Shown: positions 1 to 33,828 of the stretch, piece by piece
How the letters are laid out: every line of letters begins with the position of its first letter
Position numbering within the stretch: position 1 is the stretch's first letter
Source: a virus
Taxonomy: Duplodnaviria > Heunggongvirae > Uroviricota > Caudoviricetes
Virus record (IMG/VR): IMGVR_UViG_3300025889_000082
Location: 1 to 41,347 of that record
Reading direction: 5' to 3' (one strand)
DNA: 41,347 nucleotides
The notes under the pieces: model-generated
Seen by the model: the letters and a program-made list of their open reading frames with translations, nothing else
Told to the model about the DNA's origin: nothing
Database searches by the model: none
Made by a program: the position numbers and the translations under genes

Positions 1-1
1 A

Positions 2-7978: not shown

Positions 7979-7990
7979 AAATCAATCCAA

Positions 7991-16600: not shown

Positions 16601-19344
16601 AGTCATTGAATTCAACAGATAGACTGTATTGCCAAGTGAACGTAATAAATAATGATAGCGTAAGCAGAACATTAACTCTCTATACAGAAGGAACAAGTTA
16701 TTATTCTTACGCACAAACCACATTCAATCCTCCTAGTGGTACCTCTGGTACATCTGGAGCTAATGGTTCTTCAGGCACCTCTGGAACGTCAGGGTCTTCA
16801 GGTACATCAGCTACCAGTGGTACGTCTGGTTCAAGTGGATCAAGTGGTACAAGTGGAACTAAGGGTACCTCTGGTACATCAGGCACAAGTGGAAGTTCTG
16901 GCACTAGTGGAACGAGTGGTTCTTCTGGTACCAGTGGCTCTAGTGGTACTAGTGGGTCAAGTGGAACAAGTGCTACAAGTGGATCAAGTGGTACATCAGC
17001 AACCTCTGGTTCATCTGGTTCTTCTGGAACATCTGGCACATCAGGATCTTCAGGAACTTCTGCTTCTAGTGGAAGCTCTGGTACGTCTGGCACATCTGGA
17101 TCTAGTGGCACAAGTGCTACTAGTGGATCTAGTGGAACTAGTGGAAGCTCTGGAACAAGTGGGTCTAGTGGCACATCAGCTACATCTGGGTCTTCAGGTA
17201 CAAGTGGAACAAAAGGAACAAGTGGTACAAGTGGTACCAATGGTTCTTCAGGTACAAGTGGTACGTCTGGGTCTTCTGGTACAGCAGGTACAAGTGGTAG
17301 CTCTGGTTCTAGTGGAACATCTGGTTCTAGTGGTACAAGTGCAACATCAGGATCTTCTGGGTCTAGTGGTACTAGTGGCACGAGTGGAAGTAGTGGAACA
17401 TCAGGAACTGATGGAAGCTCAGGTAGTAGTGGTACAAGTGGTTCATCTGGTACATCAGCAACATCAGGCACTTCTGGTTCATCAGGTACTTCAGGTACTA
17501 AGGGGACATCAGGTACATCAGGAGCAAATGGTTCCAGTGGTACTAGTGGTACTAAGGGCACATCTGGAACTAGTGGAACTTCTGGTTCATCAGGAACATC
17601 AGCTACAAGTGGTTCCTCTGGAACATCTGGTACAGATGGTAGTTCTGGGTCTTCTGGAACAAGTGGTACAGATGGTAGTTCTGGTTCAAGTGGTACATCT
17701 GGTACTGATGGTAGCTCAGGTTCATCAGGAACATCTGGAACTTCTGGTTCTTCAGGAACAAGTGGTACTAAAGGAACATCAGGAACTTCTGGAGCTAATG
17801 GTTCTAGTGGTACTTCAGGAACAAAAGGTACATCTGGAACTTCTGGAACTTCAGGCTCTAGTGGAACTGCTGGTACTAGTGGTAGTTCTGGTACAAGTGC
17901 AGCTAATGGAACTTCTGGAACTTCAGGAACTGATGGATCTTCTGGAACTAGTGGTATAAACGCAACTGCAGGAACTAGTGGTGTAAGTGGTTCTAGTGGT
18001 ACTAGTGCTACAGCTGGAACAAGTGGTACCAATGGATCTAGTGGAACTTCTGGTGCCAATGGTGCTGCAGGTAGCAGTGGTACTTCTGGTACGTCAGGAG
18101 CAAATGGTGCTGCTGGGTCTAGTGGTACTAGTGGAACAAAGGGAACATCAGGAACATCTGGAGCTAATGGAGCTGCTGGTTCTTCAGGAACTAGTGGTAC
18201 TAAGGGTACAAGTGGTACAGCAGGAGCCAATGGTGCTAATGGATCTAGTGGAACGTCTGGTGCAGGTACAATCAGTGGTACTACAGGTTATATAGCCAAA
18301 TTTACTAATAGTACAACTGTTGGTAATAGTATTATAAGTGAAAGTGGTACTGTTATATCAGTCGCTGGAAGTTTAACTGCAACAGGTACTGTAACTGGAA
18401 ATGGTGTATCAATTGGTGCAAGTGATGTAAGGTCAAGTAGTAATGTTTTGACATTAGGTGGAACTTCAGAAGTTATTCGTATTGTTGGTTCTACTGGCTT
18501 TGTAGGTGTTGGTACTACTGCACCATCTTATCAATTAGATGTTCAAGTAAATAATGGTTCTTTCACATCAAGAATTAAAAACTTAAACACCACAACTGAT
18601 AACGCAGGTTTAATAGTTAGTGCTGGTGTTAATGCAGGTAATGAAATTATTTTACTTGAGAATGCTGCTGGTACTGATAGATTTACTGTATTTGCAAATG
18701 GGCAGGTGACAATGGTTGGAGCAAACACTACAACTGTTCCTATACTTGGTATAACAGTGTCAGGTTCTGGTGCATTCCAAAGAGGTGTTAGAATGTTAAA
18801 TAGTGGTATGGGTGCTGGGGATAGTTTAATGTATGCAACTGGACAGTCTGATGGTTCTAAAAACATGGGTCAATTCTATTTCTATTATGCTGGTGCAGCA
18901 AGTAATAGTAATAGATTGTCAATGGGATTACATTCTGTTGATGATGTATTTAATATTTTTGGAAGTTCTAACGTAACCATAGGCACAACATCAGATGCAG
19001 GGTATAAACTATATGTTAGTGGCACTATCTACGCAACTGGAGATATCACAGCATCTTCTGATGCCAGATATAAAACAAACATCAGACCAATTGAGAATGC
19101 TTTAGAAAAGATAGTTAGCTCAAGAGGGGTGGTATATGACAGAGTGGATGAAGAGAGCTTTGACAACATTGGATTTATTGCTCAAGAATTGGAGGTGTAT
19201 TTCCCAGAACTAGTTTCTACAGATAACCAAGGATTCAAGGGAGTTAAATACCAAAATGCTGTAGCTGTTCTATTCGAGGGAATCAAAGAACAACAAAAAC
19301 AAATTGAAGAATTAAAAACTTTAATAGATGGCTTTACCAAGTAG
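13696..19344 (+). CDS. Long tail fibre/adhesin with Gly-X-Ser repeat shafts and C-terminal peptidase S74 intramolecular chaperone
   Basis: Cys-rich N-terminus; two GDxxG..TLATVN..YGS..VxxKGxVTS shaft repeats; two (GTS/GSS)n blocks; GFVGVGTTAP...LDV-type repeats; SDARYKTNI...GFIAQE...KYQ...LFEGIKEQQKQIEEL S74 signature. Confidence 0.88.
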   Translation: MDPICSTEPCPVILNSTCVFYEGANLLYTGINTNDSIQTALQKIDAKFQEAAIGYLFNNGVYQSGPGLPVGLGGTMDHDTIITAAGFDLTYTGDVYAAKHITIGGTSSDFVKGDGSLDSTAYQPAGAYITALTGDGTASGPGSALFTLATVNPAPATYGSATQVPRFTVDGKGRVTSVTPVTIAVPSASLSFIGDVTGIGTTGSPVTLTLATVNNDVYGSNTFLKFAVNAKGLVTSATPVTHLDIESVLGYIPVPSTRTLTINGVAYSLSANRTWSVGTLISVALTMPPAFTVLTSATGTNGTINVIANGSASQYIRGDGTLGSYFGTAGTSGSSGTSGISGDKYRTTSTTPFTLGNSGTLIVATQLGYSVAQSIIVVYDLNNFQECEVVAYDFNTGLLEFAFPTRTVGSGTYSDWTVNLDGASGGNGTSGTSGSSGTTGSSGSSGTAGTSGSAGTSGSSGSSGVSGTFGTSGTDGSSGTSGSSGTTGTSGSSGSSGTNGSSGTSGTSASSGSSGTTGTSGTSASSGTSGSSGSSGTSGTNGTSGTAGTSGSSGTSGTNGSSGTSGTSATSGSSGSSGTSGSSGTSGSSGTSGSAGTSATSGTSGSSGTSATSGSSGSSGTSGTSGSSGTSATAGSSGTSATSGSSGTSASSGTSGSSGTSGTSGSSGTSATSGTSGSSGSSGTNGSSGTSASSGTSGSSATSGTSATSGSSGSSGTSGTSGSSGTSASSGSSGTSGTSGSSGTSGTNGSSGTSATSGSSGTSATSGSSGTSGTKGTSGTSGTSGSSGSSGTSATSGSSGTSGTNGSSGTAGTSGTSASSGTSGSSGTSGTAGSSGVSGVAGGLVYYMNLSTNTNSAFGTPTYKEWSPIASGAAQQTTNITLGASASGTIATFATDSGVPGATVLEAGNWAWTLHFLSSADSTWDIDVHLYKYTTGGVSTMLGNTNNVVTTISGTVVTQIYIDTFIASQSLNSTDRLYCQVNVINNDSVSRTLTLYTEGTSYYSYAQTTFNPPSGTSGTSGANGSSGTSGTSGSSGTSATSGTSGSSGSSGTSGTKGTSGTSGTSGSSGTSGTSGSSGTSGSSGTSGSSGTSATSGSSGTSATSGSSGSSGTSGTSGSSGTSASSGSSGTSGTSGSSGTSATSGSSGTSGSSGTSGSSGTSATSGSSGTSGTKGTSGTSGTNGSSGTSGTSGSSGTAGTSGSSGSSGTSGSSGTSATSGSSGSSGTSGTSGSSGTSGTDGSSGSSGTSGSSGTSATSGTSGSSGTSGTKGTSGTSGANGSSGTSGTKGTSGTSGTSGSSGTSATSGSSGTSGTDGSSGSSGTSGTDGSSGSSGTSGTDGSSGSSGTSGTSGSSGTSGTKGTSGTSGANGSSGTSGTKGTSGTSGTSGSSGTAGTSGSSGTSAANGTSGTSGTDGSSGTSGINATAGTSGVSGSSGTSATAGTSGTNGSSGTSGANGAAGSSGTSGTSGANGAAGSSGTSGTKGTSGTSGANGAAGSSGTSGTKGTSGTAGANGANGSSGTSGAGTISGTTGYIAKFTNSTTVGNSIISESGTVISVAGSLTATGTVTGNGVSIGASDVRSSSNVLTLGGTSEVIRIVGSTGFVGVGTTAPSYQLDVQVNNGSFTSRIKNLNTTTDNAGLIVSAGVNAGNEIILLENAAGTDRFTVFANGQVTMVGANTTTVPILGITVSGSGAFQRGVRMLNSGMGAGDSLMYATGQSDGSKNMGQFYFYYAGAASNSNRLSMGLHSVDDVFNIFGSSNVTIGTTSDAGYKLYVSGTIYATGDITASSDARYKTNIRPIENALEKIVSSRGVVYDRVDEESFDNIGFIAQELEVYFPELVSTDNQGFKGVKYQNAVAVLFEGIKEQQKQIEELKTLIDGFTK
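14971..16221 (+). repeat. Coding triplet repeat block 1, (G-T/S-S)n, about 415 aa
   Basis: Gly at nearly every third residue (occasional Ala), X/Y almost only Ser/Thr, with heavily mixed synonymous codons. Confidence 0.95.
16738..18261 (+). repeat. Coding triplet repeat block 2, (G-T/S-S)n with GTK, GTD, GAN and GAA variants, about 505 aa
   Basis: Same periodicity, with higher-order units such as GTSGTDGSSGSS x3 (about 17620-17725) and GTSGANGAAGSS. Confidence 0.95.
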
Positions 19345-20206: not shown

Positions 20207-20554
20207 ATGAAAGCTTTAGAGTTAAAGTTTGGTAAGGAGAAAATTCAAGGAAGAGAGACATTCTTTTCTACAGCTGACTTATTAAAAGCAGCTATTAATA
20301 ATGTACCTAGAGAAGGAGGTATGGATGTTAAAGAGATGTCTACAAGACTTCGCTTATTAAAGATTGTAGATGCTCACAAAGAGTTTAATATTGAAGAGAA
20401 AGACTTTACAGATTCTTACTTAGCTATCAGAAAGACTGTAGAGTTTGAAGATGCTGACTTTGTAAAGTTGAAAGATTTATTCAATGCTGTGAAGTGGGGT
20501 GTTGTTTCTGAATTCATTATTGAGTTAGGTGAAACATTAGAAAAAACTAAATAA
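20207..20554 (+). CDS. Hypothetical protein (possible assembly chaperone)
   Basis: 115-aa ORF with its own promoter and an A-rich start; converges on and overlaps the glycosylation operon by 8 bp. Confidence 0.7.
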   Translation: MKALELKFGKEKIQGRETFFSTADLLKAAINNVPREGGMDVKEMSTRLRLLKIVDAHKEFNIEEKDFTDSYLAIRKTVEFEDADFVKLKDLFNAVKWGVVSEFIIELGETLEKTK

Positions 20555-21614
20555 GTTTTTTCACTTCTTCCAATACATCATTCATAGAAATAGCCTTATG
20601 ACATTCAAAATGTCTAGGGCTATTTTCATTTTCAGGACACCAGTTCCAGTCTCCCTTATTAAACTTAAACAATGGATTGTTCCAACATCCATGGCACACA
20701 TTCTTATTAGTGATTCTTATACAACTAAACTCATGGTCTTCTTCTGTGAAGTTAGATATCATCACTGTCTCTTTACCAACAGCCCAGTTTAACCAGCTGA
20801 TGCCACTAGATAGTCCTATATATGCCTTTGCATAATATAGATAGTTCATTACATTGTTTAAGGAAGTGTCTGTAAGTTTGATTGCACCTAAGTCATCAGC
20901 TTCTTGAGACATCTCAATCACTTTATATCCCATTGATTGTAGCTCACTGATAAGCTCTTTCCAATAATACCAATGTTTACATTGTGCTGTAGATCTTGTA
21001 GATATGCAAATATATCTATCTTCTATAGGACGTGTTGGTGTAAAAGCTATCCTAGGTTGTATTTCTCTATGCTTTAGATTTAATATATTAGAAGCTGCTT
21101 GTTGTAATGGTATAGTGGCAGGATGTATAGGTTCTTTATTACTATCCCAGAACCATCCTATTTCAAACATTGCTATGAGGTTATCTACTCTCACCCCTCT
21201 ACCTACAAACTTAAGCTCAGGATATACAGACTCAAACAGTTCATTCTTGAATGTAGATACTATGACATCACATTGGTATACATTCTTAAACTCTAAACAG
21301 TATGGTATCCAAGCAATGCTGTCTCCCAATGAACTAGATTCAAAAGATATAAACACACGCTTACCTTTTATTTCATCTAACAGATTGATTTGCTTAATGG
21401 TGCGTCCTTGATACTTAATGAATATAGCTATGTCTGATAGATATTTTCTGCTAAGCTTAGCCCAACTTCCTGGTCTCATCTTCACTTCATATATAATCTC
21501 ACTCTTTGATGTAGTTGTATCTACAAACACTACATCATACTCTCTGTTCTTGCCCTCATCTCCTAGTAACTCAAAGTGCAAACCATGGACATGTGTTAAA
21601 TTATAAGTTACCAT
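20547..21614 (-). CDS. AAH/TibC (BAHT)-like protein O-glycosyltransferase (autotransporter heptosyltransferase family, GT-B fold)
   Basis: GSWAKLSRKY...KRVFISFESSSLGDSIAWIPY, STAQCKHW, GLSSGISWLNWAVGKETVMISNFT and Cys cluster VCHGCWN...WCP...FEC all parallel recalled AAH/TibC motifs. Confidence 0.8.
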   Translation of the reverse strand: MVTYNLTHVHGLHFELLGDEGKNREYDVVFVDTTTSKSEIIYEVKMRPGSWAKLSRKYLSDIAIFIKYQGRTIKQINLLDEIKGKRVFISFESSSLGDSIAWIPYCLEFKNVYQCDVIVSTFKNELFESVYPELKFVGRGVRVDNLIAMFEIGWFWDSNKEPIHPATIPLQQAASNILNLKHREIQPRIAFTPTRPIEDRYICISTRSTAQCKHWYYWKELISELQSMGYKVIEMSQEADDLGAIKLTDTSLNNVMNYLYYAKAYIGLSSGISWLNWAVGKETVMISNFTEEDHEFSCIRITNKNVCHGCWNNPLFKFNKGDWNWCPENENSPRHFECHKAISMNDVLEEVKKLI

Positions 21615-22623
21615 ATGCTTCTATGTATAATTGTTTTGTTATTTCAGATGTGTATTCTTTACCTATTATACGAACGTTGTCGTAATATTTCTTTAATATC
21701 TTACACACTTCCAACCAGCTTCTACTTTTACGTGCATTTAGCATTTCTTTTCTTCTGTGGTCATAGGTTTTAATTGTTTCTTCTATACCTGTAATAACAG
21801 CAGCTGTACTAATTTCAGGTATCACCCACATACCATCCATATGTCTACTTCCTTTGTAAGTTCCCACAATGGGAATAGCACATGCTGTGGCTTCCATAAG
21901 TGTTAGGTTAGGATGGCCTGCTTCTAGCATAGATGGATGTAAGAATATATCATGTGTTTGATATAGCTCTCTCATCTCTTCATCTGTAGGATTTGTTAAC
22001 TTTAAAGTTAACTTTGGATAGTCTAATAAGTCTTTATGAATTTCAAAGAACTTTTGGTTATCAGGATGACCAGCTATAGTGATAGGAAGATTCAACTGCT
22101 TAGCTGCTTCTATACCATATCTAAATCCTTTTCTATCAAACCCACTGTCTCCACCTAGTCCATTGTTAGCTATCATCAATAGTGCATATTCAAATGTAGT
22201 TGTGAAAGCATAGTTTGGTGTAAAGAAATCTGTATCTGCACCATGTGGTAGGTAGAACAACTTATCCACTGTATCAAAGTAGTCTATTAAATACTCAGCA
22301 TGTGTAAAGGATATAATACTTCCTTTCATAGCTTCTACATTCTGATTGTACACCCAGCTATCTTTACCATACCATTCTGTGTGGTGGTCATGTAGTGAAT
22401 AGATATAAGGGATGCCTCTATCTTTACAGTCTAGAGCTAAGTTAGCAAGATGTACATGTACTATCTGGTCAGGCTTTTTCTCCACCTGATTGATATATTG
22501 TATATCAACAGTTTCTCCTAGTTGTTCTAGTCCTTGTTTATATGCCCATATAAGTCTTTCTACAGCACCCCAACCATTTGGTGGGATGGTAATTAATCCT
22601 GTGGCTACTTGTACTATCCCCAT
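21601..22623 (-). CDS. Glycosyltransferase, GT4-like (GT-B)
   Basis: IPPNGWGAVE, RKGFRYGIEA, DIFLHPSMLEAGHPNLTLMEA (ExnE motif). Confidence 0.85.
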   Translation of the reverse strand: MGIVQVATGLITIPPNGWGAVERLIWAYKQGLEQLGETVDIQYINQVEKKPDQIVHVHLANLALDCKDRGIPYIYSLHDHHTEWYGKDSWVYNQNVEAMKGSIISFTHAEYLIDYFDTVDKLFYLPHGADTDFFTPNYAFTTTFEYALLMIANNGLGGDSGFDRKGFRYGIEAAKQLNLPITIAGHPDNQKFFEIHKDLLDYPKLTLKLTNPTDEEMRELYQTHDIFLHPSMLEAGHPNLTLMEATACAIPIVGTYKGSRHMDGMWVIPEISTAAVITGIEETIKTYDHRRKEMLNARKSRSWLEVCKILKKYYDNVRIIGKEYTSEITKQLYIEAYGNL

Positions 22624-23306
22624 TTTCTTTCAAATTTAATTTTGTCTTCCTCCATTTTCTTAATGCTTTCAGGAGTGAGCTTGGTTATATTTACGCTCCT
22701 TAAATGACAAACAATAGAATCTTTTACCAAGGCATGTTTAATACCATGTTTCATCAACATTCTTGCATAGTCATTGTCTTGGTAATACATATCAAACTGC
22801 TCATCAAAAGGACTAATCTTATCTAGTGCTTCCTTTTTAATAACTAAACACCAACCCATCACTGCTTCATGTACAGTGTAGTCTTCAAAGTACTTAGATG
22901 GACTATCTATAAAATGCCAATCAAAAAACCTTATATATAATGCAGGATCTTTTGGAGAGAAAGAATGTATGTCTGGTCTTTCTTTACTAATAGCCATTAT
23001 TTCAGATAGCCAGTTCTTCTCATAACCTACATCATTGTTAGATATGATAACCCATTCTGATGTTACATAGTTCATAGCAATGTTAATAAACTTGTTATAG
23101 TTAAATGGTTCATTAGGCTTAATGTAATTGGCTACTATTTGTGTTTCAAGATAGTCTTTTGTATAGTCATCTCCTGACTCCACTAAGTGTATCTTGAACT
23201 TATATCCTATTTCACTATCACGTAGGGTGTATATAGTTCTTAAAGTCATTCTAAGATTCTTTTCAGTCTTAGTATTTGTAAGTATGATTACGTCTATTGT
23301 TTGCAT
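22614..23306 (-). CDS. Glycosyltransferase, GT2-like (GT-A)
   Basis: IDVIILT...FNYNKFIN...IISNNDV...FDEQFDMYYQDNDY...HL. Confidence 0.82.
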   Translation of the reverse strand: MQTIDVIILTNTKTEKNLRMTLRTIYTLRDSEIGYKFKIHLVESGDDYTKDYLETQIVANYIKPNEPFNYNKFINIAMNYVTSEWVIISNNDVGYEKNWLSEIMAISKERPDIHSFSPKDPALYIRFFDWHFIDSPSKYFEDYTVHEAVMGWCLVIKKEALDKISPFDEQFDMYYQDNDYARMLMKHGIKHALVKDSIVCHLRSVNITKLTPESIKKMEEDKIKFERKWG

Positions 23307-23308
23307 GT

Positions 23309-23860
23309 TTATTTTTTTAATAGTCCCCAGAAGTATAAATCACAGCTATTCTCATCTACATAGAAATGATGTGCAGCAAAATACTTATCTAAATCTATAG
23401 CTGCTCTTACATCTAATTCTGTAACATTCATATAATACCCAGCCCAATCTTCTTCTTGTATTGTGAATGGACTATCTTGTGGATCAAATATACTAGTTCC
23501 ATGTGTAGGTCTTCCTGTCGTAGCACATGTAAATAAAAACAATCCTCCTGGACGTAATAGATTATCTATAACATTCTGGATAGTTTCCTTCCAATACATA
23601 TCATGTTCAAACACTTCTGTGCTTATAACAGTGTCATACTTTTTACCATCTATAGGTCTGTATTCATGTCCTTTACTTACAACATTTACATTTCTACCCT
23701 TACCAATATCTATACCAATATAGGAATAGTCTTCAAATAGATAGTGATTGTTACCATTTAAGTCTAGTGAACCAATGTCACAGACATTTACATTATTGAA
23801 ATACTCAGGAAAGATTTGTTTTACAAAGTTGCAAAATGCTTGCTCTGCTGGATGTGCCAT
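23309..23860 (-). CDS. Class I SAM-dependent methyltransferase (possible sugar O-methyltransferase)
   Basis: VCDIGSLDLNG motif I, YIGIDIG, YDTVISTEVFEHD, LLRPGGLFLFT. Confidence 0.85.
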   Translation of the reverse strand: MAHPAEQAFCNFVKQIFPEYFNNVNVCDIGSLDLNGNNHYLFEDYSYIGIDIGKGRNVNVVSKGHEYRPIDGKKYDTVISTEVFEHDMYWKETIQNVIDNLLRPGGLFLFTCATTGRPTHGTSIFDPQDSPFTIQEEDWAGYYMNVTELDVRAAIDLDKYFAAHHFYVDENSCDLYFWGLLKK

Positions 23861-23861
23861 A

Positions 23862-24848
23862 TTAGTTTAATTTAATTGTTCCCTTTTCTTTAAACAGGGA
23901 TAAGTTTTGGTTGGTTAATGTAAATTTCTTAGACAAAAATAAGTATTTTTTATCAATGTCATACACTTCTACACGTATTTCTTCTCCATCTAATTTGTAT
24001 GTATTGAACCAGTAGTGTCCTTTACCTAATATCTGTGTTTGTGTTAGTTCATTATTCTTGTAAATGTCAACATGTTTCCACTCTTCTAGTATAAGTGTAT
24101 TCATTATAAATAGAACAGGCTCTTCTGGAACCACCTCATTATACAATAGCTCACAGTTAAAGAGTCCATATCTAAGCACATTCACATCACTGTCTGTGAA
24201 GATGTTAGAGCTATGGTCATGTACTAGTAAGAACTGGTCTTCATGTTTACTAAACTGTTCGTAGAAAGATAGTTCTAATGTATAGCCCATAGGAATTCTT
24301 AACCACTCGTGTACATCTAATGGAGGTTGGAATGTATATAGGAAGTAGTCTAGATTACCACCAAACAATAAGGTTTCATATACATAAGAACCTTCACAGT
24401 CCCTATACTCCTCAGGTCTAAAGAATAACATCTTCTTACCCAAGCCACCCATTTCATCCATCAGTCCAACTAGTTTTGCTGCATCAGGTTGAGATAGAAG
24501 AACATCACACTCTGTAAATACAAACTCATCATAGCCCATTGCTTTTGCTAGGTTCATTCCAGCTCTCATGTTTCTGCATATAGGTAGTGTGTGTCCTGCA
24601 TTAAATATATTTATAATATATTCATCTGTTTGAAACCACCAGTTGGGAGTGTATGTAGGGGGGAGGAAGGTGTTGTTGCTATCATAGATGGTATATTGCA
24701 CCTTTTCAGCAGTGGCTTTATCAATTGGCAAATGAGCTACAATCATAATATCCCACCCTGTATGTTTGAATCCATCTATACATCTGTTAAGAATATCTAT
24801 CTCTCTTTGACCAGATGGATAACAATCTATAATAGCTATTCTTTTCAT
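23862..24848 (-). CDS. Putative glycosyltransferase-like protein of unassigned family
   Basis: Lies within the GT operon; contains TECDV (DxD-like); N-terminus is paralogous to the middle domain of the neighbouring 883-aa protein. Confidence 0.55.
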   Translation of the reverse strand: MKRIAIIDCYPSGQREIDILNRCIDGFKHTGWDIMIVAHLPIDKATAEKVQYTIYDSNNTFLPPTYTPNWWFQTDEYIINIFNAGHTLPICRNMRAGMNLAKAMGYDEFVFTECDVLLSQPDAAKLVGLMDEMGGLGKKMLFFRPEEYRDCEGSYVYETLLFGGNLDYFLYTFQPPLDVHEWLRIPMGYTLELSFYEQFSKHEDQFLLVHDHSSNIFTDSDVNVLRYGLFNCELLYNEVVPEEPVLFIMNTLILEEWKHVDIYKNNELTQTQILGKGHYWFNTYKLDGEEIRVEVYDIDKKYLFLSKKFTLTNQNLSLFKEKGTIKLN

Positions 24849-27496
24849 TTCTTTCTAAATGATTTTTCCATGTTGTCTATTAAGGAGAATCCATCTGCTT
24901 GGGTAGTAAGTCTTTCGTACACAATACCCATCTTTTGGTTGTTAAATATAATGTTGAAATACATATCTGCAGCATCCCAAGGTTCTTTACGTAATGTTTC
25001 TTTCAACCATGGAGCTATATGTATAGGGAACATAATTGATTGTAAACCAATGATATGATCTGTTTCATACATTACATCATTAATCTTTCTCACCTCAGGG
25101 CTTTGTGGCCAGCCATGTTCTAATGTATCTTTATCTCCAAAGGACATGAATTCAATATTGTTAATAATCATTTCATGTGCACAGCTTTCCACAGTGGATA
25201 TGAAGTGTTCAATTGGTGCTTCAATAATACAATCACCTTCACACACCATCAAGAAATCACAGTCATGGAATTCACTTAGGATGGCATCTCTGAATGCTTG
25301 GTAGCATCCATAATGTGCTGGGGTAAGTGCAGTGCCATACTGTTGAACTTGCTGTTCATTGAAGAGTTCCATTGAAACACAAAAGGGCCTGATGCAGTTG
25401 TGCTCAGGTGGTAATGATCTGTAGGGATAGTTAAGATGTAATTTGTATTCCCATCCATGGTCTCTAACTCTTTCAAGGGATGCTCTGCTAGCTTGTTCTC
25501 TTTCATCGTTTAATGTAGTTTGTATATGAACTAATTTAATTCTAGGTCTTTCTTTCTTCTTAAATTCAAACCTACCTGTGCTTTGATACTTATCTAAATT
25601 GTCCTTATGTAGGGTGTGTTTTTCTATCTTGTAGCAATGGTCTCCATCATAGAAGTCTAGTTGTATATCAATAGGCTCTCCCTTAAATACAAAAGGATAC
25701 ATCCATTCTCTAGTCTTAGCCACCTGTATTCTCTTATCTATATCACCAATAGTAACATATATAGTTCTATGGTCTACATTATATGTAAAGAAATAGAACA
25801 TATAATTGTTTGGTTTTCCAACAATTGGTATAATAGAATAATATTCACTGTTAGAAGATGTGCCTAAGCCACTATGAACCAATAAGGTTTCTTGTTCATT
25901 GGTGATTATTTCTGTATTATCATCAGTGATTCTCTTTGATAGATAGTCTTCTAGGAAGTTATGAGCTCCTATCCACTCACAGATTCTGTTGTATTCTTGT
26001 GGATCTGTAGCGTCATCAAATGTCTTCAAGAAATAATCTACATCATACATCATTCCATTGGTCTGAATTCCCTTACCCATAGGTGTAGGGAGGGTAGCTA
26101 CATATGCGTTCTTACCAGAGGATAATGCTTTTTCAATAACATCTAAATCTTTACTATCTACCACCACATCATATGTATTGTAGAACACTCTCTTATATCC
26201 ATTCTGTTTAGCAGCTTTCATTCCATTGAATATATTAACTAACACTGTAAGGGACTGGTTGGTATCCTTCAATCCATTGATATTAATCTCAGCATAGTAG
26301 TTAGGAGTATCATTATAAAACCTAGTGTAATAGCTATGATGAGTGAGTGGGTTGTTCTTGTCATATACATAATAGTCTACCATGCGTTGTGTCTCATCGT
26401 CTACAGGATAGTGACTTACTAACATAATCTTTCTACCTAAGGGCTTCATAGATTGTATTGTACGTTTTGTAAGACTAACTCTTTCCTTCAGATTGGGATA
26501 GGTACCTATGATGATAAGTTCCTCATCTAATCTGTTGAGATTTAGACGTATCATAATATTAACTAAATCAAAAGAAACATCTCCTGTTAGATACATAACA
26601 TCTTCCTGTCCATTATACTTATTACAATACACATCTAGATTATACATCATCTTAATTAAGTCAGGATACTCCATGGCTTCTTTGATGGCTATAGGGTTTA
26701 GTTCCTTATTGCCTCTGTCTCCTTTGGATGGGAAGAAGAACACATCACATGCCTGTAAGAATTCAGATACATCATTACGTTCTCCCCAGACAACACAATT
26801 ATCTGGTTTGTTATTCATCAATGGTTCCCAATAGTCTTTAAAGTTGTCTGCTTGGTTACCTAGGAAATGAAACTTCACCTTATACTTCTCCAAGTGCTTA
26901 GCTATTTCAAAAGCATAGGCTTGGTTCTTTCTTGGAGTGAACAATCCCACTATAGCAAAGTGTTTATATGCAGGATCTAAGCCTAGTTTATTCTGCATCT
27001 CTATTTTGTTACGCTCTTTCTTATCTATAGGGTATTCAATAATCTCTGTTGGAACAGGTAAGTTTACATATTTAAAAGCATTGTATGCACTAACAAATAT
27101 AAATTTATCAGGTAGATAGTATTTATGTTTAGGATTGAAAGAACTATCATGTGTAGTTTCTACTATCTTCCAAGGTTTTTTTAAATCATACAAGTAGTCT
27201 GCAGATTGTCTATCTAAGAACATCTCTGGAAACTCTTCCATAGCTATTACATCTGGTTGCCAGTTCTCTACCACTCTTGTAAGCTCTTCATACTTGTTCT
27301 CTCCTAGGGATATAAAGTTGTTAACTCCTACTAGTTCTATAATTCTATTTCTTTGCACTACAAAGTTCCATGCTATGAATGCATGTTCTATCACTAATAT
27401 ATCAAACACATCCTTAAGAAGTGCTATCTTATTCACTGTTACCTGAGGGGCTCCTCCTGTTGATAGATGAGGAGTGATTACTAATAGTTTTTTCAT
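24845..27496 (-). CDS. Tri-domain glycosyltransferase: GT4-like + unassigned GT-A-like + GT25-like
   Basis: Likely start MKKLLVITPHLSTGGAPQ at 27496 (ATGA overlap with the upstream gene). FFFPSK..ELNPIAIKEA (GT4); middle domain with YDVVVD; C-terminal HYGCYQAF...VCEGD (GT25-like). Confidence 0.75.
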   Translation of the reverse strand: MKKLLVITPHLSTGGAPQVTVNKIALLKDVFDILVIEHAFIAWNFVVQRNRIIELVGVNNFISLGENKYEELTRVVENWQPDVIAMEEFPEMFLDRQSADYLYDLKKPWKIVETTHDSSFNPKHKYYLPDKFIFVSAYNAFKYVNLPVPTEIIEYPIDKKERNKIEMQNKLGLDPAYKHFAIVGLFTPRKNQAYAFEIAKHLEKYKVKFHFLGNQADNFKDYWEPLMNNKPDNCVVWGERNDVSEFLQACDVFFFPSKGDRGNKELNPIAIKEAMEYPDLIKMMYNLDVYCNKYNGQEDVMYLTGDVSFDLVNIMIRLNLNRLDEELIIIGTYPNLKERVSLTKRTIQSMKPLGRKIMLVSHYPVDDETQRMVDYYVYDKNNPLTHHSYYTRFYNDTPNYYAEININGLKDTNQSLTVLVNIFNGMKAAKQNGYKRVFYNTYDVVVDSKDLDVIEKALSSGKNAYVATLPTPMGKGIQTNGMMYDVDYFLKTFDDATDPQEYNRICEWIGAHNFLEDYLSKRITDDNTEIITNEQETLLVHSGLGTSSNSEYYSIIPIVGKPNNYMFYFFTYNVDHRTIYVTIGDIDKRIQVAKTREWMYPFVFKGEPIDIQLDFYDGDHCYKIEKHTLHKDNLDKYQSTGRFEFKKKERPRIKLVHIQTTLNDEREQASRASLERVRDHGWEYKLHLNYPYRSLPPEHNCIRPFCVSMELFNEQQVQQYGTALTPAHYGCYQAFRDAILSEFHDCDFLMVCEGDCIIEAPIEHFISTVESCAHEMIINNIEFMSFGDKDTLEHGWPQSPEVRKINDVMYETDHIIGLQSIMFPIHIAPWLKETLRKEPWDAADMYFNIIFNNQKMGIVYERLTTQADGFSLIDNMEKSFRKK

Positions 27497-28431
27497 ATAA
27501 GTCTGGATATTATATTTATAACGTGTTCTACAGATGGATGGCATTCAAATGTTTCTTTCTTCTCTAAGCATCCAATTAGAGGTTGTACAGAGTCTATAGT
27601 GTCCCAATACTCAAGAGCATATTTCATGTTAGAGCTGCAATGTAATCCACAGCTTCCTCCAATATATTCATGTCTCCACCCCTGCTCTCCATATCTATAA
27701 GGAGTTCTAAACTCAGGATTGATAGCTGATCCTAATTCAAATATTAATGTTTCAGTGGTGGCTGCTAGATGTAGAATACCAGAGTCCATAGTGACTACAG
27801 CTGTAGAATTGTTAAGGATGTACCAAGTTTCAGATATGGATGTCTGATTCATTAGGTTGATGATGTTGGTGTTTCCTAATTCATGTACAGGTTTGTTTAC
27901 ATTAAAGAAACCTGTCTCAGAACTATCTTTACCTATGGCAACCACTTTGTATCCCAGCTCAATTAACTTTTCAGATAGTTTAAGCCAATTATCTTGAGAC
28001 CAAGTTCTATTAGGCCAGCTGTTAACAGGATGTATCACTACATATTTACCTGATATATTGTTAACCATTTGTTCTGTTGGTCTATAGAAACAATCCATCT
28101 CATCTCTTCTAAGCATAAATCCTAAATGAATTGCATGGAACTGCCTGATATCCATCATGTTATGCTTCATTTCTACACCTCTCTCATCCTTCTTACCTAC
28201 CAAATAGAATGAATTATGAACAATGTAATTACTTTGTATATACTCCATGTCTATAGAGCTGTTCTTATAGCTCTTCTCTACATAAGGATTCATCTTAAAT
28301 AACTCAGGCATCTGAGACAGTATAGTTATCTTTCTACCATAGCTTTCAGATAGTTTTTTGATGGTGGGAGTAGCACAAATAAGGTCCCCAAGACCATTAC
28401 ATTCTGATAAGTTTAAACAAACTGGTTTCAT
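27493..28431 (-). CDS. GT9-like glycosyltransferase (ADP-heptose:LPS heptosyltransferase superfamily) with C-terminal Cys cluster
   Basis: GLGDLICATPTIKKL, VIHP..SWPNRTW, DSGILHLAA, CGLHC...CLE...FECHP. Confidence 0.8.
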   Translation of the reverse strand: MKPVCLNLSECNGLGDLICATPTIKKLSESYGRKITILSQMPELFKMNPYVEKSYKNSSIDMEYIQSNYIVHNSFYLVGKKDERGVEMKHNMMDIRQFHAIHLGFMLRRDEMDCFYRPTEQMVNNISGKYVVIHPVNSWPNRTWSQDNWLKLSEKLIELGYKVVAIGKDSSETGFFNVNKPVHELGNTNIINLMNQTSISETWYILNNSTAVVTMDSGILHLAATTETLIFELGSAINPEFRTPYRYGEQGWRHEYIGGSCGLHCSSNMKYALEYWDTIDSVQPLIGCLEKKETFECHPSVEHVINIISRLI

Positions 28432-28432
28432 T

Positions 28433-28479
28433 GTTGTTTATTTTCAACAAAGTTACTATATTTGTGGGGAATATTCAAC
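28433..28479. promoter_or_regulatory. Overlapping divergent promoter pair
   Basis: Plus strand GTTG(28433-36)-N20-TATATTTG(28457-64); minus strand GTTG(28479-76)-N20-TAACTTTG(28455-48). Confidence 0.65.
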
Positions 28480-28488
28480 AAATTTTTT

Positions 28489-28857
28489 ATGCAAATAGAA
28501 GTAAGTATTGGAGAAATAGTGGACAAATGGACCATTCTTTCTATCAAAGCCCTAAATATTACAGACAAAGATAAGTTAGTCAATGTATTTAAAGAACGTA
28601 ACTATCTAAATACCATCATAGATCCTGAGGTTTTACATGATTCTTTAACAGATAGTTTGCTCACAGTAAACAAAAGACTCTGGGATGTAGAGGATAGACT
28701 CAGAGATTGTGAAAGAAGCAAGGTGTTTGATGACCACTTTGTACAACTAGCCAGATCTGTTTATATGTTGAATGACAAGCGAGCACATATTAAAAAAGAA
28801 ATTAATATTAAGTGGGGATCTGACTTTATAGAGGAGAAATCCTACCAGCCATACTAG
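28489..28857 (+). CDS. DUF6165-like helical protein
   Basis: Likely start MQIEVSIGEIVDK at 28489. The pattern VSIGEIVDK.TIL.IK...VN..LW.VED.LR...FVQLARSVY..ND.RA.IKKEIN...EEKSY is recalled as DUF6165. Confidence 0.7.
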   Translation: MQIEVSIGEIVDKWTILSIKALNITDKDKLVNVFKERNYLNTIIDPEVLHDSLTDSLLTVNKRLWDVEDRLRDCERSKVFDDHFVQLARSVYMLNDKRAHIKKEINIKWGSDFIEEKSYQPY

Positions 28858-28981: not shown

Positions 28982-29278
28982 ATGAGAGAAAATTCTAGTA
29001 TCCAAGCCTTCAAGGTGTGGGTGTTCCCTAGCCTAGTATCAATCATCAGCCTTTTAATATGGAATGATGTAAATGAAATCAAGTCTGATGTCAAAGCCCT
29101 AATGGCCCAGTCTAATATAGACAAGACACGTATTGATAACCTTGAAAGACAGGTATACAAAACAACTGCTTCCTATCCTACTATTCCCCCTGTGACACCA
29201 GTGGTAATGGAAACTGTAGGGGTTCTTCCTGAACAATTAACACTTAAACAGAAAAAGTATGAAAAAGTTCTTCTCTGA
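28982..29278 (+). CDS. Putative holin/antiholin-like membrane protein
   Basis: One N-terminal TM helix plus a coiled-coil; first gene of the lysis cassette. Confidence 0.5.
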   Translation: MRENSSIQAFKVWVFPSLVSIISLLIWNDVNEIKSDVKALMAQSNIDKTRIDNLERQVYKTTASYPTIPPVTPVVMETVGVLPEQLTLKQKKYEKVLL

Positions 29279-30090: not shown

Positions 30091-30097
30091 AAATAAC

Positions 30098-30863: not shown

Positions 30864-30869
30864 ACCAAC

Positions 30870-33519: not shown

Positions 33520-33524
33520 TCAAC

Positions 33525-33827: not shown

Positions 33828-33828
33828 T

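What the first reader, a model, noticed from the sequence alone, without database searches (positions are those of the whole stretch)
20547..28431. Seven-gene glycosylation operon inverted inside the structural region
Seen: the only minus-strand block in the window, about 7.9 kb, with overlapping or near-abutting genes (ATGA-type coupling) and an 8-bp convergent overlap with no terminator. It contains GT9, GT4+X+GT25, X, MTase, GT2, GT4 and BAHT, enough for a multi-sugar methylated glycan. No flippase, polymerase or ligase is present, which argues for direct cytoplasmic stepwise transfer rather than O-antigen conversion. Inference: an exchangeable glyco-cassette diversifying virion surfaces.
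Basis: partly seen in the sequence, partly recalled or inferred. Interest (0 to 1): 0.72.

Follow-up and report, generated by a model that had tools for sequence, protein, structure and literature searches.

The report
Phage fibre sugar-coating gene cassette
An uncultured freshwater phage carries a tight seven-gene operon of soluble sugar-adding enzymes, led by a relative of the bacterial enzymes that sugar-coat adhesin proteins, and comparative evidence says it most likely decorates the phage's own serine/threonine-rich collagen-like tail fibres, a kind of virus self-glycosylation so far shown by experiment only in a few other viruses.

Summary
Positions 20547-28431 carry seven translationally coupled minus-strand genes: GT9, a three-glycosyltransferase fusion, a stand-alone copy of that fusion's middle module, a SAM methyltransferase, GT2, GT4, and a TibC/Aah-type protein O-heptosyltransferase (BAHT). 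One correction: the fusion gene starts at 27496, not 27544. "GT25" is supported only as a GT-A fold.

None of the seven has a membrane segment. The 105-kb phage record has no multi-pass membrane protein, integrase, ADP-heptose synthesis gene or hydroxymethylase.

All 6 near-complete relatives carry BAHT. GT9, the fusion, GT4 and BAHT form a stable core. Accessory genes (GT2, methyltransferases, 2OG oxygenases, sulfotransferase with APS kinase) give at least 15 cassette architectures.

The likely acceptor is the Gly-Ser/Thr-Ser/Thr collagen-like fibres. Such repeats lie beside this BAHT clade in unrelated phages and next to a stand-alone BAHT in bacterial chromosomes, but beside none of about 71 classical bacterial BAHTs. 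Fibre proline content also tracks oxygenase presence in the cassette.

No glycan, donor sugar or acceptor has been shown experimentally. Other notes in this scan flagged the same region and the BAHT gene. I read this as a new variant of a known kind; confidence about 0.6.

The parts
27493..28431 (-). First gene of the operon: GT9-family glycosyltransferase (312 aa), LPS-heptosyltransferase-like
   Evidence: PF01075, 56.8 bits. Heptosyltransferase I/II models score 42-43 bits, below their cut-offs. Best solved relative is WaaF (1PSW), E 7.8e-6. Found in 24 of 49 related loci.
24845..27496 (-). 883-aa fusion of three glycosyltransferases: GT-B/GT4 (1-321), GT-A (about 325-575), beta-sandwich (about 550-645), GT-A (about 649-883). 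Start corrected from 27544.
   Evidence: Start corrected. AF2 models have pLDDT 80. Residues 1-321 match HepE with Z 24.1. The middle domain matches glycogenin with Z 13.7, and the C-terminal domain matches GnT-I (Z 15.6), POMGNT1 (15.2) and PBCV-1 A64R (13.4). The tandem GT-A part matches COLGALT1, LH3 and mimivirus R699 (Foldseek E 1e-11). Found in 45 of 49 loci.
23862..24848 (-). 328-aa stand-alone paralogue of the fusion's middle GT-A plus beta-sandwich module (accessory gene)
   Evidence: It aligns over its full length to residues about 325-650 of the fusion, with invariant H, D, D, D and LE positions. tblastn hits fall inside the fusion orthologues. No Pfam or PHROG family. Atlas relatives are phage-only clusters.
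23309..23860 (-). SAM-dependent methyltransferase (183 aa), accessory gene
   Evidence: phrog_32762, E 2.6e-45; PF13489, 29.6 bits. Present in only 6 of 49 loci.
22614..23306 (-). GT2-family (GT-A) glycosyltransferase (230 aa), accessory gene
   Evidence: PF00535, 28.1 bits; phrog_22332, E 3.7e-13. Present in 12 of 49 loci.
21601..22623 (-). GT4-family (GT-B) glycosyltransferase (340 aa), core gene; fused to BAHT in some relatives
   Evidence: PF00534 and PF13692, 37 bits. Present in 42 of 49 loci. Forms a single 699-701-aa GT4-BAHT ORF in L031, L032 and L035-L044.
20547..21614 (-). Last gene: BAHT (Aah/TibC-type protein O-heptosyltransferase homologue, 355 aa), proposed initiating enzyme
   Evidence: TIGR04414, 232.4 bits against a cut-off of 200. 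TibC (4RAP), E 2.2e-44. The catalytic Asp, Thr/Lys/Trp and the four iron-binding Cys are invariant in 34 phage sequences; the Arg286 equivalent is not conserved.
28432..28488 (.). Short divergent control region between the operon and the DUF6165 gene
   Evidence: TAACTTTG lies on the minus strand 16 nt upstream of the GT9 ATG. TATATTTG lies on the plus strand 23 nt upstream of the ATG at 28489. Both fit the Bacteroidota -7 box TAnnTTTG (my own knowledge). The motif is only about 2-fold enriched in intergenic DNA genome-wide, so this is a weak lead.
28489..28857 (+). DUF6165 protein (122 aa from the ATG at 28489), a conserved neighbour and possible eighth component
   Evidence: PF19662, E 3e-9. 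Present in 30 of 49 loci. Co-directional with BAHT and overlapping its end in L031 and L035-L044; co-directional about 1.9 kb upstream of it in L049. Role unknown.
13696..19344 (+). 1882-aa collagen-like tail fibre (Ser 24%, Thr 17%, Gly 21%; Gly-Thr/Ser-Ser triplets; S74 chaperone end), proposed main acceptor
   Evidence: PF01391, E 5.5e-102, and PF13884. Composition and sequence. Across all the window's collagen-like runs (this fibre and the 369-aa one), X positions are T 133 and S 74 of 228, and Y positions are S 176. Equivalent fibres lie convergent to BAHT in 25 of 33 loci that have at least 5 kb of flank.
36556..37665 (+). 369-aa small collagen-like fibre protein with 22 Gly-Ser/Thr triplets, a possible further acceptor
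   Evidence: phrog_5073 and others. Sequence and composition.

Best explanation
The block is a phage-encoded cytoplasmic protein O-glycosylation operon whose substrate is most likely the phage's own collagen-like fibre proteins.

Proposed course of events. During infection the seven soluble enzymes are made from one translationally coupled transcript. The BAHT-clade enzyme attaches the first sugar to Ser/Thr hydroxyls of the (Gly-Ser/Thr-Ser/Thr)n shafts of the 1882-aa, 1541-aa and 369-aa fibres. That sugar is a heptose or a related NDP-sugar supplied by the host. The GT9 enzyme, the GT4 enzyme, the three-domain fusion, its stand-alone paralogue and the GT2 enzyme then extend the glycan one sugar at a time. 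The SAM methyltransferase caps it. The fibres are then built into virions.

What is shown: gene content, solubility, retention of catalytic residues, synteny, modular variation, and the statistical association of this BAHT clade with Ser/Thr collagen-like repeats.

What is inferred: the acceptor, the order of enzyme action, the donor sugars, and the purpose. Possible purposes are stabilising a proline-free triple helix, shielding, or tuning adsorption.
For: 1. Enzyme identity.
- BAHT scores over the curated cut-off. The TibC catalytic Asp110, Thr226, Lys230, Trp305 and the four iron-binding Cys are invariant in 34 phage sequences.
- There are eight glycosyltransferase-like domains plus one methyltransferase.

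2. Cytoplasmic location, not lipid-linked.
- The seven proteins have no convincing membrane segment.
- No protein in the 105-kb record has more than 3 hydrophobic segments.
- No integrase or resolvase was found.

3. Linkage.
- GT4 and BAHT are one ORF in L031, L032 and L035-L044. ORFs of 1134-1213 aa fuse BAHT with GT4, or with a GT4-type domain like the fusion's N-terminus, in other relatives.
- The cassette sits convergent to a collagen-like fibre gene in 25 of 33 viral loci with enough flank.
- All 6 relatives that are at least 90% complete carry BAHT.

4. Independent co-occurrence.
- Ser/Thr-rich collagen-like repeats lie beside BAHT homologues in Microcystis phage Mel-JY01 and in a 735-kb phage.
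- The same holds in 6 of the 7 closest 'genome' loci, and in 0 of about 71 classical bacterial BAHT loci covering 1.3 Mb.
- All such cases fall in one clade of 26 rows with SH-aLRT 100.
- In true bacterial context (L162, L163), a stand-alone BAHT lies about 170 nt from a 206-208-aa lipoprotein ending in about 24 Gly-Ser-Ser triplets, with no other glycosyltransferase recognised among the ten neighbouring ORFs scanned in L163.

5. Enzyme and substrate vary together.
- Proline in the adjacent fibre's repeats (4.8-22% of X/Y positions) occurs in exactly the 9 loci whose cassette carries DUF6445, with or without 2OG-Fe(II) oxygenases.
- It is at most 2.1% in all the others. The trait needs 2-3 changes on the BAHT tree.

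6. Precedent.
- Virus-encoded cytoplasmic glycosylation of virion proteins is known in mycobacteriophages (cited in PMC11256854 and PMC12619734), chloroviruses (PMC7826918, PMC9614988) and mimivirus collagen-like proteins (PMC9614988).
Against: - No biochemical or proteomic data exist for this phage or any relative.
- The known acceptors of BAHTs are beta-helical autotransporter passengers, not collagen-like repeats. The phage enzyme lacks the TibC Arg286 adenine contact and apparently the beta-hairpin thumb, so both the donor and the quaternary structure may differ.
- More distant BAHT-bearing phage loci (L046-L051, LR756504) show no collagen-like repeats within 10-20 kb.
- Adjacency of cassette and fibre means that co-variation could partly reflect linkage rather than function.
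- One relative (G004) has a proline-containing stretch in its distal fibre without any oxygenase.
- GT9, GT4 and GT-A enzymes are also the normal toolkit of LPS-core synthesis.
- The phage carries no ADP-heptose synthesis genes, so it depends on what the unknown host makes.
Confidence: 0.6

Rival explanations
1. The operon glycosylates a protein other than the collagen-like fibres. Candidates are the capsid, the giant 2635-aa and 1853-aa proteins, the exported Ser/Thr-rich proteins downstream, or a host protein such as a receptor or a defence factor.
For: - BAHT shows that the target is a protein but does not name it.
- Other Ser/Thr-rich proteins exist, for example the 407-aa protein at 35239-36462 with Ser 15% and Thr 10%.
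- Distant BAHT phage loci lack collagen-like repeats nearby.
Against: - The clade-wide and cross-lineage association is with Gly-Ser/Thr repeats specifically, including a two-gene bacterial pair.
- The giant ORFs are poorly conserved (26-30% identity) while the cassette is conserved.
- The downstream Ser/Thr-rich proteins carry N-terminal export signals. The whole block 30995-36462 is absent from G002 and G011, and only a 43-aa fragment of one ORF is found in G004; all three keep at least part of the cassette.
Confidence: 0.15
2. The enzymes remodel the host's LPS or lipo-oligosaccharide core on the cytoplasmic face of the inner membrane, and the host's own MsbA flips the product. The effect would be to alter the cell surface during infection, for example to stop progeny from re-adsorbing to debris or to exclude competing phages.
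For: - GT9 (WaaC/WaaF-like), GT4 (WaaG-like) and GT-A enzymes are the classical core-oligosaccharide toolkit. The best solved relative of the first gene is WaaF. WaaG appears among the structural matches of the GT4 domain.
Against: - The conserved anchor of the cassette is a BAHT, a family known only to act on proteins. It is physically fused to the GT4 in relatives.
- The GT9 scores far below the equivalog cut-offs for LPS heptosyltransferases (43 against 135-185 bits).
- No membrane-association segments were found.
- The phage appears strictly lytic.
- The cassette co-varies with fibre sequence.
Confidence: 0.12
3. The glycosyltransferases hypermodify phage DNA with glycans to escape host restriction, as T-even and other phages do.
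For: Multi-glycosyltransferase DNA hypermodification by viruses is documented (Pyle et al. 2024, cited in PMC12619734). T4 alpha-glucosyltransferase appears among the GT-B structural matches (Z about 20).
Against: - The record has no thymidylate-synthase-like hydroxymethylase.
- BAHT is a protein-modifying family.
- The cassette lies in the late/structural region next to fibre genes, not in the replication block.
- The T4 match is generic GT-B fold similarity, ranked below dozens of GT4 enzymes.
Confidence: 0.03

Closest known systems
Bacterial autotransporter heptosyltransferases (BAHT: AAH, TibC; Yao et al. 2014, PMC4358343)
   Same: - Sequence membership: TIGR04414 over the cut-off; E 2e-44 to TibC.
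- Conserved catalytic Asp, beta-phosphate/sugar contacts (Thr, Lys, Trp) and the Cys4 iron finger.
- A cytoplasmic, soluble enzyme that modifies many Ser residues of a repetitive structural protein before assembly or export.
   Different: - Encoded by a phage, or in bacteria placed next to Gly-Ser-Ser lipoproteins, with no autotransporter in the record.
- The adenine-contacting Arg286 is replaced by Val/Thr/Ala.
- The beta-hairpin thumb needed for the dodecamer appears to be deleted.
- Position 300 is Ser, as in AAH.
- It heads a multi-enzyme elongation pathway, whereas AAH and TibC add single heptoses.
- At most 37% identical to classical bacterial members, and forms a separate clade.
Mycobacteriophage virion O-glycosylation (Che8, Corndog, Myrna; Freeman et al. 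2023, known to me through citations in PMC11256854 and PMC12619734; the paper itself is not held)
   Same: Phage-encoded glycosyltransferases beside structural genes; glycans on Ser/Thr-rich stretches of virion proteins; cytoplasmic and independent of a flippase.
   Different: - There the targets are the C-terminal tails of capsid and tail-tube subunits, and 1-4 glycosyltransferases are involved.
- Here the presumed targets are kilobase-long collagen-like fibre shafts, eight glycosyltransferase-like domains are present, the initiator is a BAHT, and the host is probably Gram-negative.
- Here nothing has been shown experimentally.
Chlorovirus PBCV-1 capsid glycosylation enzymes A064R (two rhamnosyltransferases plus a methyltransferase) and A111/114R (three glycosyltransferase functions) (PMC9614988, PMC7826918)
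   Same: Virus-encoded soluble multi-domain glycosyltransferase fusions together with sugar methylation. The A64R domain-1 structure is among the matches of the fusion's C-terminal GT-A domain (Z 13.4).
   Different: The chlorovirus infects a eukaryotic alga, makes N-linked glycans on the capsid protein, and uses no BAHT and no collagen-like acceptor.
Collagen glycosylation machinery: human COLGALT1 (GT25) and LH3, and mimivirus L230/R699 acting on viral collagen-like proteins (PMC9614988; structures 9EVJ, 6FXR, 9DYT)
   Same: - The tandem GT-A arrangement of the fusion's C-terminal two thirds finds these as its best Foldseek matches (E 1e-11).
- The substrate class, collagen-like triple-helix proteins, is the same.
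- Relatives' cassettes add 2OG-Fe(II) oxygenases, the enzyme class of collagen hydroxylases.
   Different: - No Pfam GT25 match.
- TM-scores are low (0.2-0.3) because the domains are oriented differently.
- Those enzymes glycosylate hydroxylysine. Here Lys is rare (10 of 228 Y positions) and Ser/Thr are the likely acceptors.
BclA, the collagen-like exosporium glycoprotein of Bacillus anthracis (Daubenspeck et al. 2004, listed as ref 237 in PMC9614988; details from my own knowledge)
   Same: A prokaryotic collagen-like fibre whose Gly-Pro-Thr triplets carry O-linked oligosaccharides that end in a methylated sugar, made by dedicated cytoplasmic enzymes.
   Different: Gram-positive spore protein; rhamnose/anthrose chemistry; no BAHT; not viral.
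Temperate-phage O-antigen conversion (gtrABC, Wzy-dependent systems)
   Same: Phage-borne glycosyltransferases.
   Different: Those systems need GtrA/GtrB/GtrC-type membrane proteins and lysogeny. None of these is found here.

Membership tests
BAHT (TIGR04414, Aah/TibC autotransporter O-heptosyltransferase) | Profile score above the curated equivalog cut-off | tested here: met
   232.4 bits against a cut-off of 200, covering residues 24-354. TibC 4RAP, E 2.2e-44.
BAHT (TIGR04414, Aah/TibC autotransporter O-heptosyltransferase) | Catalytic base Asp110 and donor contacts Thr226, Lys230, Trp305 (PMC4358343) | tested here: met
   These map to D98, T209, K213 and W274, which are invariant in 34 distinct phage sequences.
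BAHT (TIGR04414, Aah/TibC autotransporter O-heptosyltransferase) | Cys4 iron-finger (TibC Cys339, 342, 358, 370) | tested here: met
   C307, C310, C326 and C338 are invariant in 34 sequences. Iron binding itself was not tested.
BAHT (TIGR04414, Aah/TibC autotransporter O-heptosyltransferase) | Arg286 contact to adenine N1, which gives specificity for ADP-activated heptose | tested here: not met
   The aligned position is Val255, and Val/Thr/Ala/Ile/Cys across the phage clade. The donor nucleotide may therefore differ.
BAHT (TIGR04414, Aah/TibC autotransporter O-heptosyltransferase) | Beta-hairpin thumb (Phe265/Val266) that builds the dodecamer ring | tested here: inconclusive
   The pairwise HMMER alignment shows a gap of about 10 residues where the thumb lies. 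No structure model of this protein was made.
BAHT (TIGR04414, Aah/TibC autotransporter O-heptosyltransferase) | Acceptor is an autotransporter passenger domain encoded nearby | tested here: not met
   No PF03797 match in the 105-kb record. The giant proteins have no Pfam match. The neighbours are collagen-like fibres instead.
BAHT (TIGR04414, Aah/TibC autotransporter O-heptosyltransferase) | Heptosyl transfer to Ser demonstrated | not testable with these tools
   Needs an enzyme assay or mass spectrometry.
Phage virion O-glycosylation systems (mycobacteriophage type) | Phage glycosyltransferase genes next to structural genes, and Ser/Thr-rich acceptor stretches in virion proteins | tested here: met
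   The cassette lies between fibre, lysis and fibre genes. The fibres have 41% Ser+Thr.
Phage virion O-glycosylation systems (mycobacteriophage type) | Glycans detected on virion proteins | not testable with these tools
   The phage is uncultured and no proteomic data exist.
O-antigen conversion / Wzx-Wzy or GtrABC systems | Multi-pass membrane flippase, polymerase or ligase, and a temperate lifestyle | tested here: not met
   A hydropathy scan of all 119 ORFs found none with more than 3 hydrophobic segments; the few with 2-3 are proteins of 52-196 aa. No integrase or resolvase. The record is 92% complete, so absence is not absolute.
LPS inner-core heptosyltransferases (WaaC/WaaF/WaaQ, GT9) | Score above the equivalog cut-offs | tested here: not met
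   The first gene scores 43.4 (cut-off 134.6) for heptosyltransferase II and 41.8 (cut-off 185.3) for heptosyltransferase I. It passes only the general GT9 Pfam model at 56.8 bits.
GT25 (PF01755; LPS beta-1,4-galactosyltransferase / COLGALT) | Match to the family profile | tested here: inconclusive
   No Pfam match in the isolated domain at E up to 1, nor in a six-frame search of the genome at E up to 10. At fold level the domain resembles the COLGALT1 tandem GT-A. One related Atlas cluster has PF01755 on 17% of its members.

The most novel reading that the evidence does not exclude
This is a distinct BAHT clade that has switched acceptor from autotransporter beta-helices to (Gly-Ser/Thr-Ser/Thr)n collagen-like repeats. 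The dense O-glycans it starts would take the place of hydroxyproline as the stabiliser of an imino-acid-free triple helix. That would make the cassette an obligatory fibre-maturation system rather than an optional coat, which would explain why all 6 complete relatives keep it. The swappable accessory genes (extra glycosyltransferases, O-methylation, sulfation with its own PAPS supply, 2OG-oxygenase hydroxylation matched to proline-bearing fibres) would then write a strain-specific 'glycocode' on the fibres that sets adsorption and escape properties.
Probability: 0.25. Interest if true: 0.85.

Novelty: new variant of a known kind. Interest (0 to 1): 0.72.

Why it matters
Self-glycosylation of phage particles was demonstrated only recently, and only in mycobacteriophages. 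This locus would extend it to a very abundant group of environmental phages: more than 598 contigs carry a capsid protein related to this phage's, and in the best 80 it is 96-99% identical. It would also extend it to tail fibres, the parts that decide host range, and to a much larger enzyme set.

The locus offers a concrete, cheap test: co-express one enzyme with one repeat segment. It also suggests that a family known as a virulence-factor modifier in enteric pathogens has a second, unrecognised substrate class in phages and in free-living bacteria.

If glycans do stabilise proline-free collagen helices, that bears on collagen biophysics and on engineering phage fibres and recombinant collagens.

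Tried and rejected
- Megablast of the block against 50,697 phage records found no match.
- PHROGs and Pfam on the two giant ORFs gave nothing usable.
- The sigma-70 promoter and terminator scan was at chance level. The TAnnTTTG motif is not enriched in the window (63 against 50 expected) and is only about 2-fold enriched in intergenic DNA genome-wide. I therefore treat the promoter and the Bacteroidota-host reading as weak leads only.
- Pfam GT25 was not found.
- Complex prediction of BAHT with the DUF6165 neighbour gave no verdict (score 0.01). This is neither evidence for nor against binding.
- Literature searches for a phage BAHT or a crAss-like heptosyltransferase found no paper. The Freeman 2023 paper is not held.
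- I considered the idea that the whole cassette is hypervariable relative to the genome and rejected it. Core glycosylation genes are 68-79% identical to G002 and G004 against 75-90% for most core genes. Only the capsid protein (97%) is far more conserved.
- I considered prolyl 4-hydroxylation as the role of the relatives' oxygenases. Proline sits mostly in the X position (GPT, GPQ), not the Y position, so I leave that role open.


Full report
**What is there**

The window is the first 41,347 nt of a 105,347-nt IMG/VR virus record that CheckV rates 92% complete. ORF listing shows seven minus-strand genes filling 20547-28431 with almost no spacing. The junctions are two ATGA overlaps, gaps of 1 and 2 nt, and overlaps of 10 and 14 nt. 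The leaders are A-rich and lack Shine-Dalgarno motifs. The last gene overlaps the convergent plus-strand gene 20207-20554 by 8 nt.

In order of transcription the genes are:
- A GT9 enzyme of 312 aa (PF01075, 56.8 bits). Its best solved relative is WaaF, E 7.8e-6.
- A long multi-domain protein.
- A 328-aa protein with no family.
- A 183-aa SAM methyltransferase (phrog_32762, E 2.6e-45).
- A GT2 enzyme (230 aa).
- A GT4 enzyme (340 aa).
- A 355-aa protein that passes the curated NCBIfam equivalog for autotransporter O-heptosyltransferases (TIGR04414, 232.4 bits against a cut-off of 200).

**Corrections to the observation**

The long gene was called from the ATG at 27544. In most orthologues a stop codon lies within about 12 codons of that point, and most orthologues begin MKKLL. 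The real start is the ATG at 27496, giving 883 aa and an ATGA overlap with the GT9 stop.

Two AlphaFold models (pLDDT 80) divide this protein as follows:
- Residues 1-321: a GT-B/GT4 domain (Z 24.1 to HepE, rmsd 3.2 over 299 residues).
- Residues about 325-575: a GT-A domain (Z 13.7 to glycogenin).
- A beta-sandwich.
- Residues about 649-883: a second GT-A domain (Z 15.6 to GnT-I, 15.2 to POMGNT1, 13.4 to the PBCV-1 capsid-glycosylating A64R).

The two GT-A domains together find the tandem GT-A collagen enzymes COLGALT1 and LH3, and mimivirus R699, as their best Foldseek matches (E about 1e-11, but TM only 0.2-0.3). Pfam GT25 is not matched. 'GT25' is therefore a fold-level resemblance, not a family assignment.

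The 328-aa 'X' protein aligns over its whole length to the middle GT-A plus beta-sandwich module of the fusion, with shared invariant His, Asp and Glu positions. The block thus encodes eight glycosyltransferase-like domains and one methyltransferase.

**Genomic setting**

Structural genes run on the plus strand from 73 kb to the end of the record: large terminase, portal, major head protein, a 1541-aa collagen-like fibre and a 1560-aa virion protein. They continue into the window with two giant ORFs (2635 and 1853 aa) and a 1882-aa collagen-like fibre that ends in an S74 chaperone.

After the minus-strand cassette come a DUF6165 gene, an endolysin, a run of proteins with N-terminal hydrophobic segments, and a 369-aa collagen-like fibre protein. 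A 30-kb minus-strand replication block follows outside the window.

'Inverted inside the late/structural region' is accurate. 'The only minus-strand block' holds for the window apart from two small conserved ORFs.

**Is it a protein glycosylation system?**

- None of the seven proteins has a convincing membrane segment. No ORF in the record has more than three hydrophobic segments, so no Wzx, Wzy, WaaL or GtrA-like partner is present.
- There is no integrase or resolvase, which argues against lysogenic serotype conversion.
- There is no thymidylate-synthase-like hydroxymethylase, which argues against DNA glycosylation.

The BAHT aligns to TibC with E 2.2e-44. Using the residues defined in the TibC structure paper (PMC4358343):
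- The catalytic base Asp110, the donor contacts Thr226, Lys230 and Trp305, and all four iron-binding cysteines are retained and are invariant in 34 distinct phage sequences of 33-78% identity.
- Arg286, which contacts adenine N1 and explains ADP specificity, is Val here and Val/Thr/Ala/Ile/Cys in the clade.
- Position 300 is Ser, as in AAH.
- The beta-hairpin thumb that builds the TibC dodecamer falls in a gap of about 10 residues.

The enzyme is therefore almost certainly active, but its donor nucleotide and its oligomeric state may differ from TibC.

The phage has no GmhA, HldE-kinase or adenylyltransferase family genes, so donors must come from the host. A heptose-kinase domain passes its curated cut-off in 50 of 101 sampled Bacteroidota genomes. 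A host of that phylum could therefore supply ADP-heptose, but the host assignment itself is only a lead.

**Comparative evidence: conservation and modularity**

BAHT relatives were found on 49 viral contigs. In the loci that cover the whole cassette the synteny is constant: fibre genes, then convergently BAHT, GT4, variable genes, the fusion, GT9, then the DUF6165 gene and lysis genes.

BAHT (49 loci), the fusion (45), GT4 (42) and GT9 (24) form the core. The 328-aa paralogue as a stand-alone gene (10 loci; in 25 others its tblastn hit falls inside the fusion), GT2 (12) and the methyltransferase (6) are accessory and occur in different orders.

The capsid protein finds more than 598 related contigs, and in the best 80 it is 96-99% identical. 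Among 16 long ones, all 6 that are at least 90% complete carry BAHT.

Against three complete relatives, the core glycosylation genes are 68-79% identical where most core genes are 75-90%. The core is thus inherited with the genome rather than swapped.

Relatives' cassettes carry further accessory genes:
- One or two PF13759 2OG-Fe(II) oxygenases.
- A DUF6445 protein between GT4 and BAHT.
- A sulfotransferase with an APS kinase and a cytidylyltransferase-like protein.
- FkbM-type and other methyltransferases.

I count at least 15 architectures among about 25 non-redundant loci. GT4 and BAHT are a single 699-701-aa ORF in one group of relatives, and ORFs of 1134-1213 aa fuse BAHT with GT4, or with a GT4-type domain like the fusion's N-terminus, in others. 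Such fusions show that these enzymes work together.

**What is the acceptor?**

The three fibres are extraordinary. The 1882-aa and 1541-aa proteins are 24-25% Ser, 17% Thr and 21% Gly, built of Gly-Thr-Ser and Gly-Ser-Ser triplets without proline. In the window's repeats the X position is Thr or Ser in 207 of 228 triplets and the Y position is Ser in 176.

Four lines of evidence link them to the cassette.

1. Ser/Thr-rich, proline-poor collagen-like repeats lie convergent to BAHT in 25 of 33 viral loci that have at least 5 kb of flank.

2. The same pairing recurs in unrelated viruses.
- In Microcystis phage Mel-JY01, an open frame with 202 triplets (80% Ser/Thr) is followed by a structural protein and a 1227-aa FkbM-BAHT fusion.
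- In a 735-kb phage, such repeats lie about 5 kb from BAHT.

3. Among 80 loci from bacterial and archaeal genome assemblies that hold a BAHT homologue, such repeats occur within 10 kb in 6 of the 7 closest with flank (35-58% identity) and in none of about 71 classical ones, which cover 1.3 Mb.
- If the six were placed at random among 78 loci, the chance that all fall in those seven is about 3e-8. The loci are not independent, so I count roughly four or five separate contexts.
- On a tree of 97 BAHTs, all 19 repeat-associated rows fall in one clade of 26 rows with SH-aLRT 100.
- In two Gammaproteobacteria contigs with ordinary chromosomal neighbours (pirin, LysR, a two-component system), a stand-alone BAHT lies about 170 nt from a 206-208-aa lipoprotein that ends in about 24 Gly-Ser-Ser triplets, with no other glycosyltransferase recognised among the ten neighbouring ORFs scanned in L163. 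This is a minimal pair of enzyme and candidate acceptor.

4. Cassette content tracks fibre sequence.
- Proline, mostly in GPT and GPQ triplets, makes up 4.8-22% of X/Y positions in the adjacent fibre in exactly the nine loci whose cassette carries DUF6445 with or without 2OG oxygenases.
- It makes up at most 2.1% in all the others, including this window.
- The trait needs two to three changes on the BAHT tree.
- Caveats: cassette and fibre are neighbours, so linkage contributes to the correlation. One relative has a proline-bearing stretch in its distal fibre without any oxygenase.

**Mechanism proposed**

Shown: the gene set, its solubility, retention of catalytic residues, operon structure, conservation, modular variation, and the association with Ser/Thr collagen-like repeats.

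Inferred:
- BAHT starts the glycan on Ser/Thr of the fibre shafts in the cytoplasm.
- GT9 adds a second heptose-type sugar, as WaaF does in LPS.
- The GT4, GT-A and GT2 domains extend the chain, and the methyltransferase caps it.
- The glycosylated fibres are then assembled into virions.

The purpose is open. Because the shafts lack proline and hydroxyproline, dense O-glycosylation may be what stabilises the triple helix. From my own knowledge, galactosylated Thr stabilises Riftia cuticle collagen. Shielding, or tuning of adsorption, is the alternative.

**Rivals**

- Another protein target remains possible, since distant BAHT phage loci lack nearby repeats (confidence 0.15).
- Remodelling of the host LPS core is not excluded by the absence of a flippase, because core assembly uses the host's MsbA, and GT9, GT4 and GT-A enzymes are core-type enzymes. 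However, the anchor enzyme is protein-specific and fused to the GT4, the GT9 scores far below the LPS equivalog cut-offs, and the phage looks strictly lytic (confidence 0.12).
- DNA glycosylation is unlikely (confidence 0.03).

**Comparison with what is known, and novelty**

The closest families are:
- BAHTs (same fold and catalytic apparatus; different genomic partner, and the adenine contact is lost).
- Mycobacteriophage virion glycosylation (same logic; different targets, scale and enzymes).
- Chlorovirus multi-domain glycosyltransferase/methyltransferase fusions.
- Mimivirus and animal collagen glycosylation.
- The BclA collagen-like glycoprotein.

I found no paper that describes a BAHT in a phage or links BAHTs to collagen-like repeats. 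The library is incomplete, so this is not proof of novelty.

Other notes of this scan flagged the same region and the BAHT gene in this genome.

I class the finding as a new variant of a known kind. It rests entirely on computation.

Noticed in passing
window 27496-27544: The longest-ORF call of the fusion gene runs 48 nt too far upstream. Orthologues have a stop codon there and start at MKKLL, so the true start is the ATG at 27496, overlapping the GT9 stop as ATGA.
   Followed up: yes
window 28489-28857; L031:11062-11445; L035:10999-11376: The DUF6165 protein (122 aa) is a conserved neighbour of the cassette in 30 of 49 loci. In some relatives it is co-directional with BAHT and overlaps its end, so it may be an eighth component. 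Its relatives are mostly viral and its function is unknown.
   Followed up: partly
L007:967-3767 and 8387-8983; L011, L012, L014, L016, L017: Relatives' cassettes carry a sulfation set (APS kinase, cytidylyltransferase-like protein, sulfotransferase), one or two 2OG-Fe(II) oxygenases and a DUF6445 protein. Proline appears in the adjacent collagen-like fibre only where DUF6445 or the oxygenases are present.
   Followed up: partly
L163:9881-11800; L162:8447-11792: In Gammaproteobacteria chromosomal contigs, a stand-alone phage-type BAHT lies about 170 nt from a lipoprotein (LAGC lipobox) that ends in about 24 Gly-Ser-Ser triplets. This is a candidate bacterial glycolipoprotein system.
   Followed up: partly
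L052 (PP395634.1) 1-8430: In Microcystis phage Mel-JY01, the deposited minus-strand CDSs at 1-651 and 739-2298 lie over a plus-strand open frame (2-3052) that encodes 202 collagen-like triplets. This is probably a strand mis-annotation. The BAHT there is the C-terminus of a 1227-aa protein annotated as 'methyltransferase FkbM'.
   Followed up: partly
window 71-13552: The two giant ORFs (2635 and 1853 aa) have no Pfam or PHROG family. They are only 26-30% identical to relatives whose capsid protein is 97% identical, but 47-55% identical to a more distant relative, which suggests module exchange.
   Followed up: no
window 28982-36462: Eight of the ORFs in this stretch have an N-terminal hydrophobic segment, which suggests exported or membrane-anchored proteins. 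One is a 407-aa Ser/Ala/Gly-rich protein. The stretch 30995-36462 is absent from G002 and G011, and only a 43-aa fragment of one ORF matches in G004.
   Followed up: no
G000:C1:93256-95421 (outside the window): A 721-aa protein after the 1541-aa fibre carries about nine Ser-x-Asp-x-Gly-x-x-Trp motifs resembling BNR/Asp-box repeats of sialidase-type beta-propellers. It had no PHROG match.
   Followed up: no
window 29237-29488 (minus strand): A small 83-aa minus-strand ORF between plus-strand genes is conserved at 54-83% identity (median 75%) in 7 related loci, so it is probably a real gene.
   Followed up: no
L158 (CAZWRD010000032.1): A 26.5-kb contig binned into an 'uncultured Bacteroides sp.' MAG carries the same cassette and fibres (BAHT 58% identical). 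It is a phage contig of this clade. The binning is at most a weak hint about the host.
   Followed up: partly
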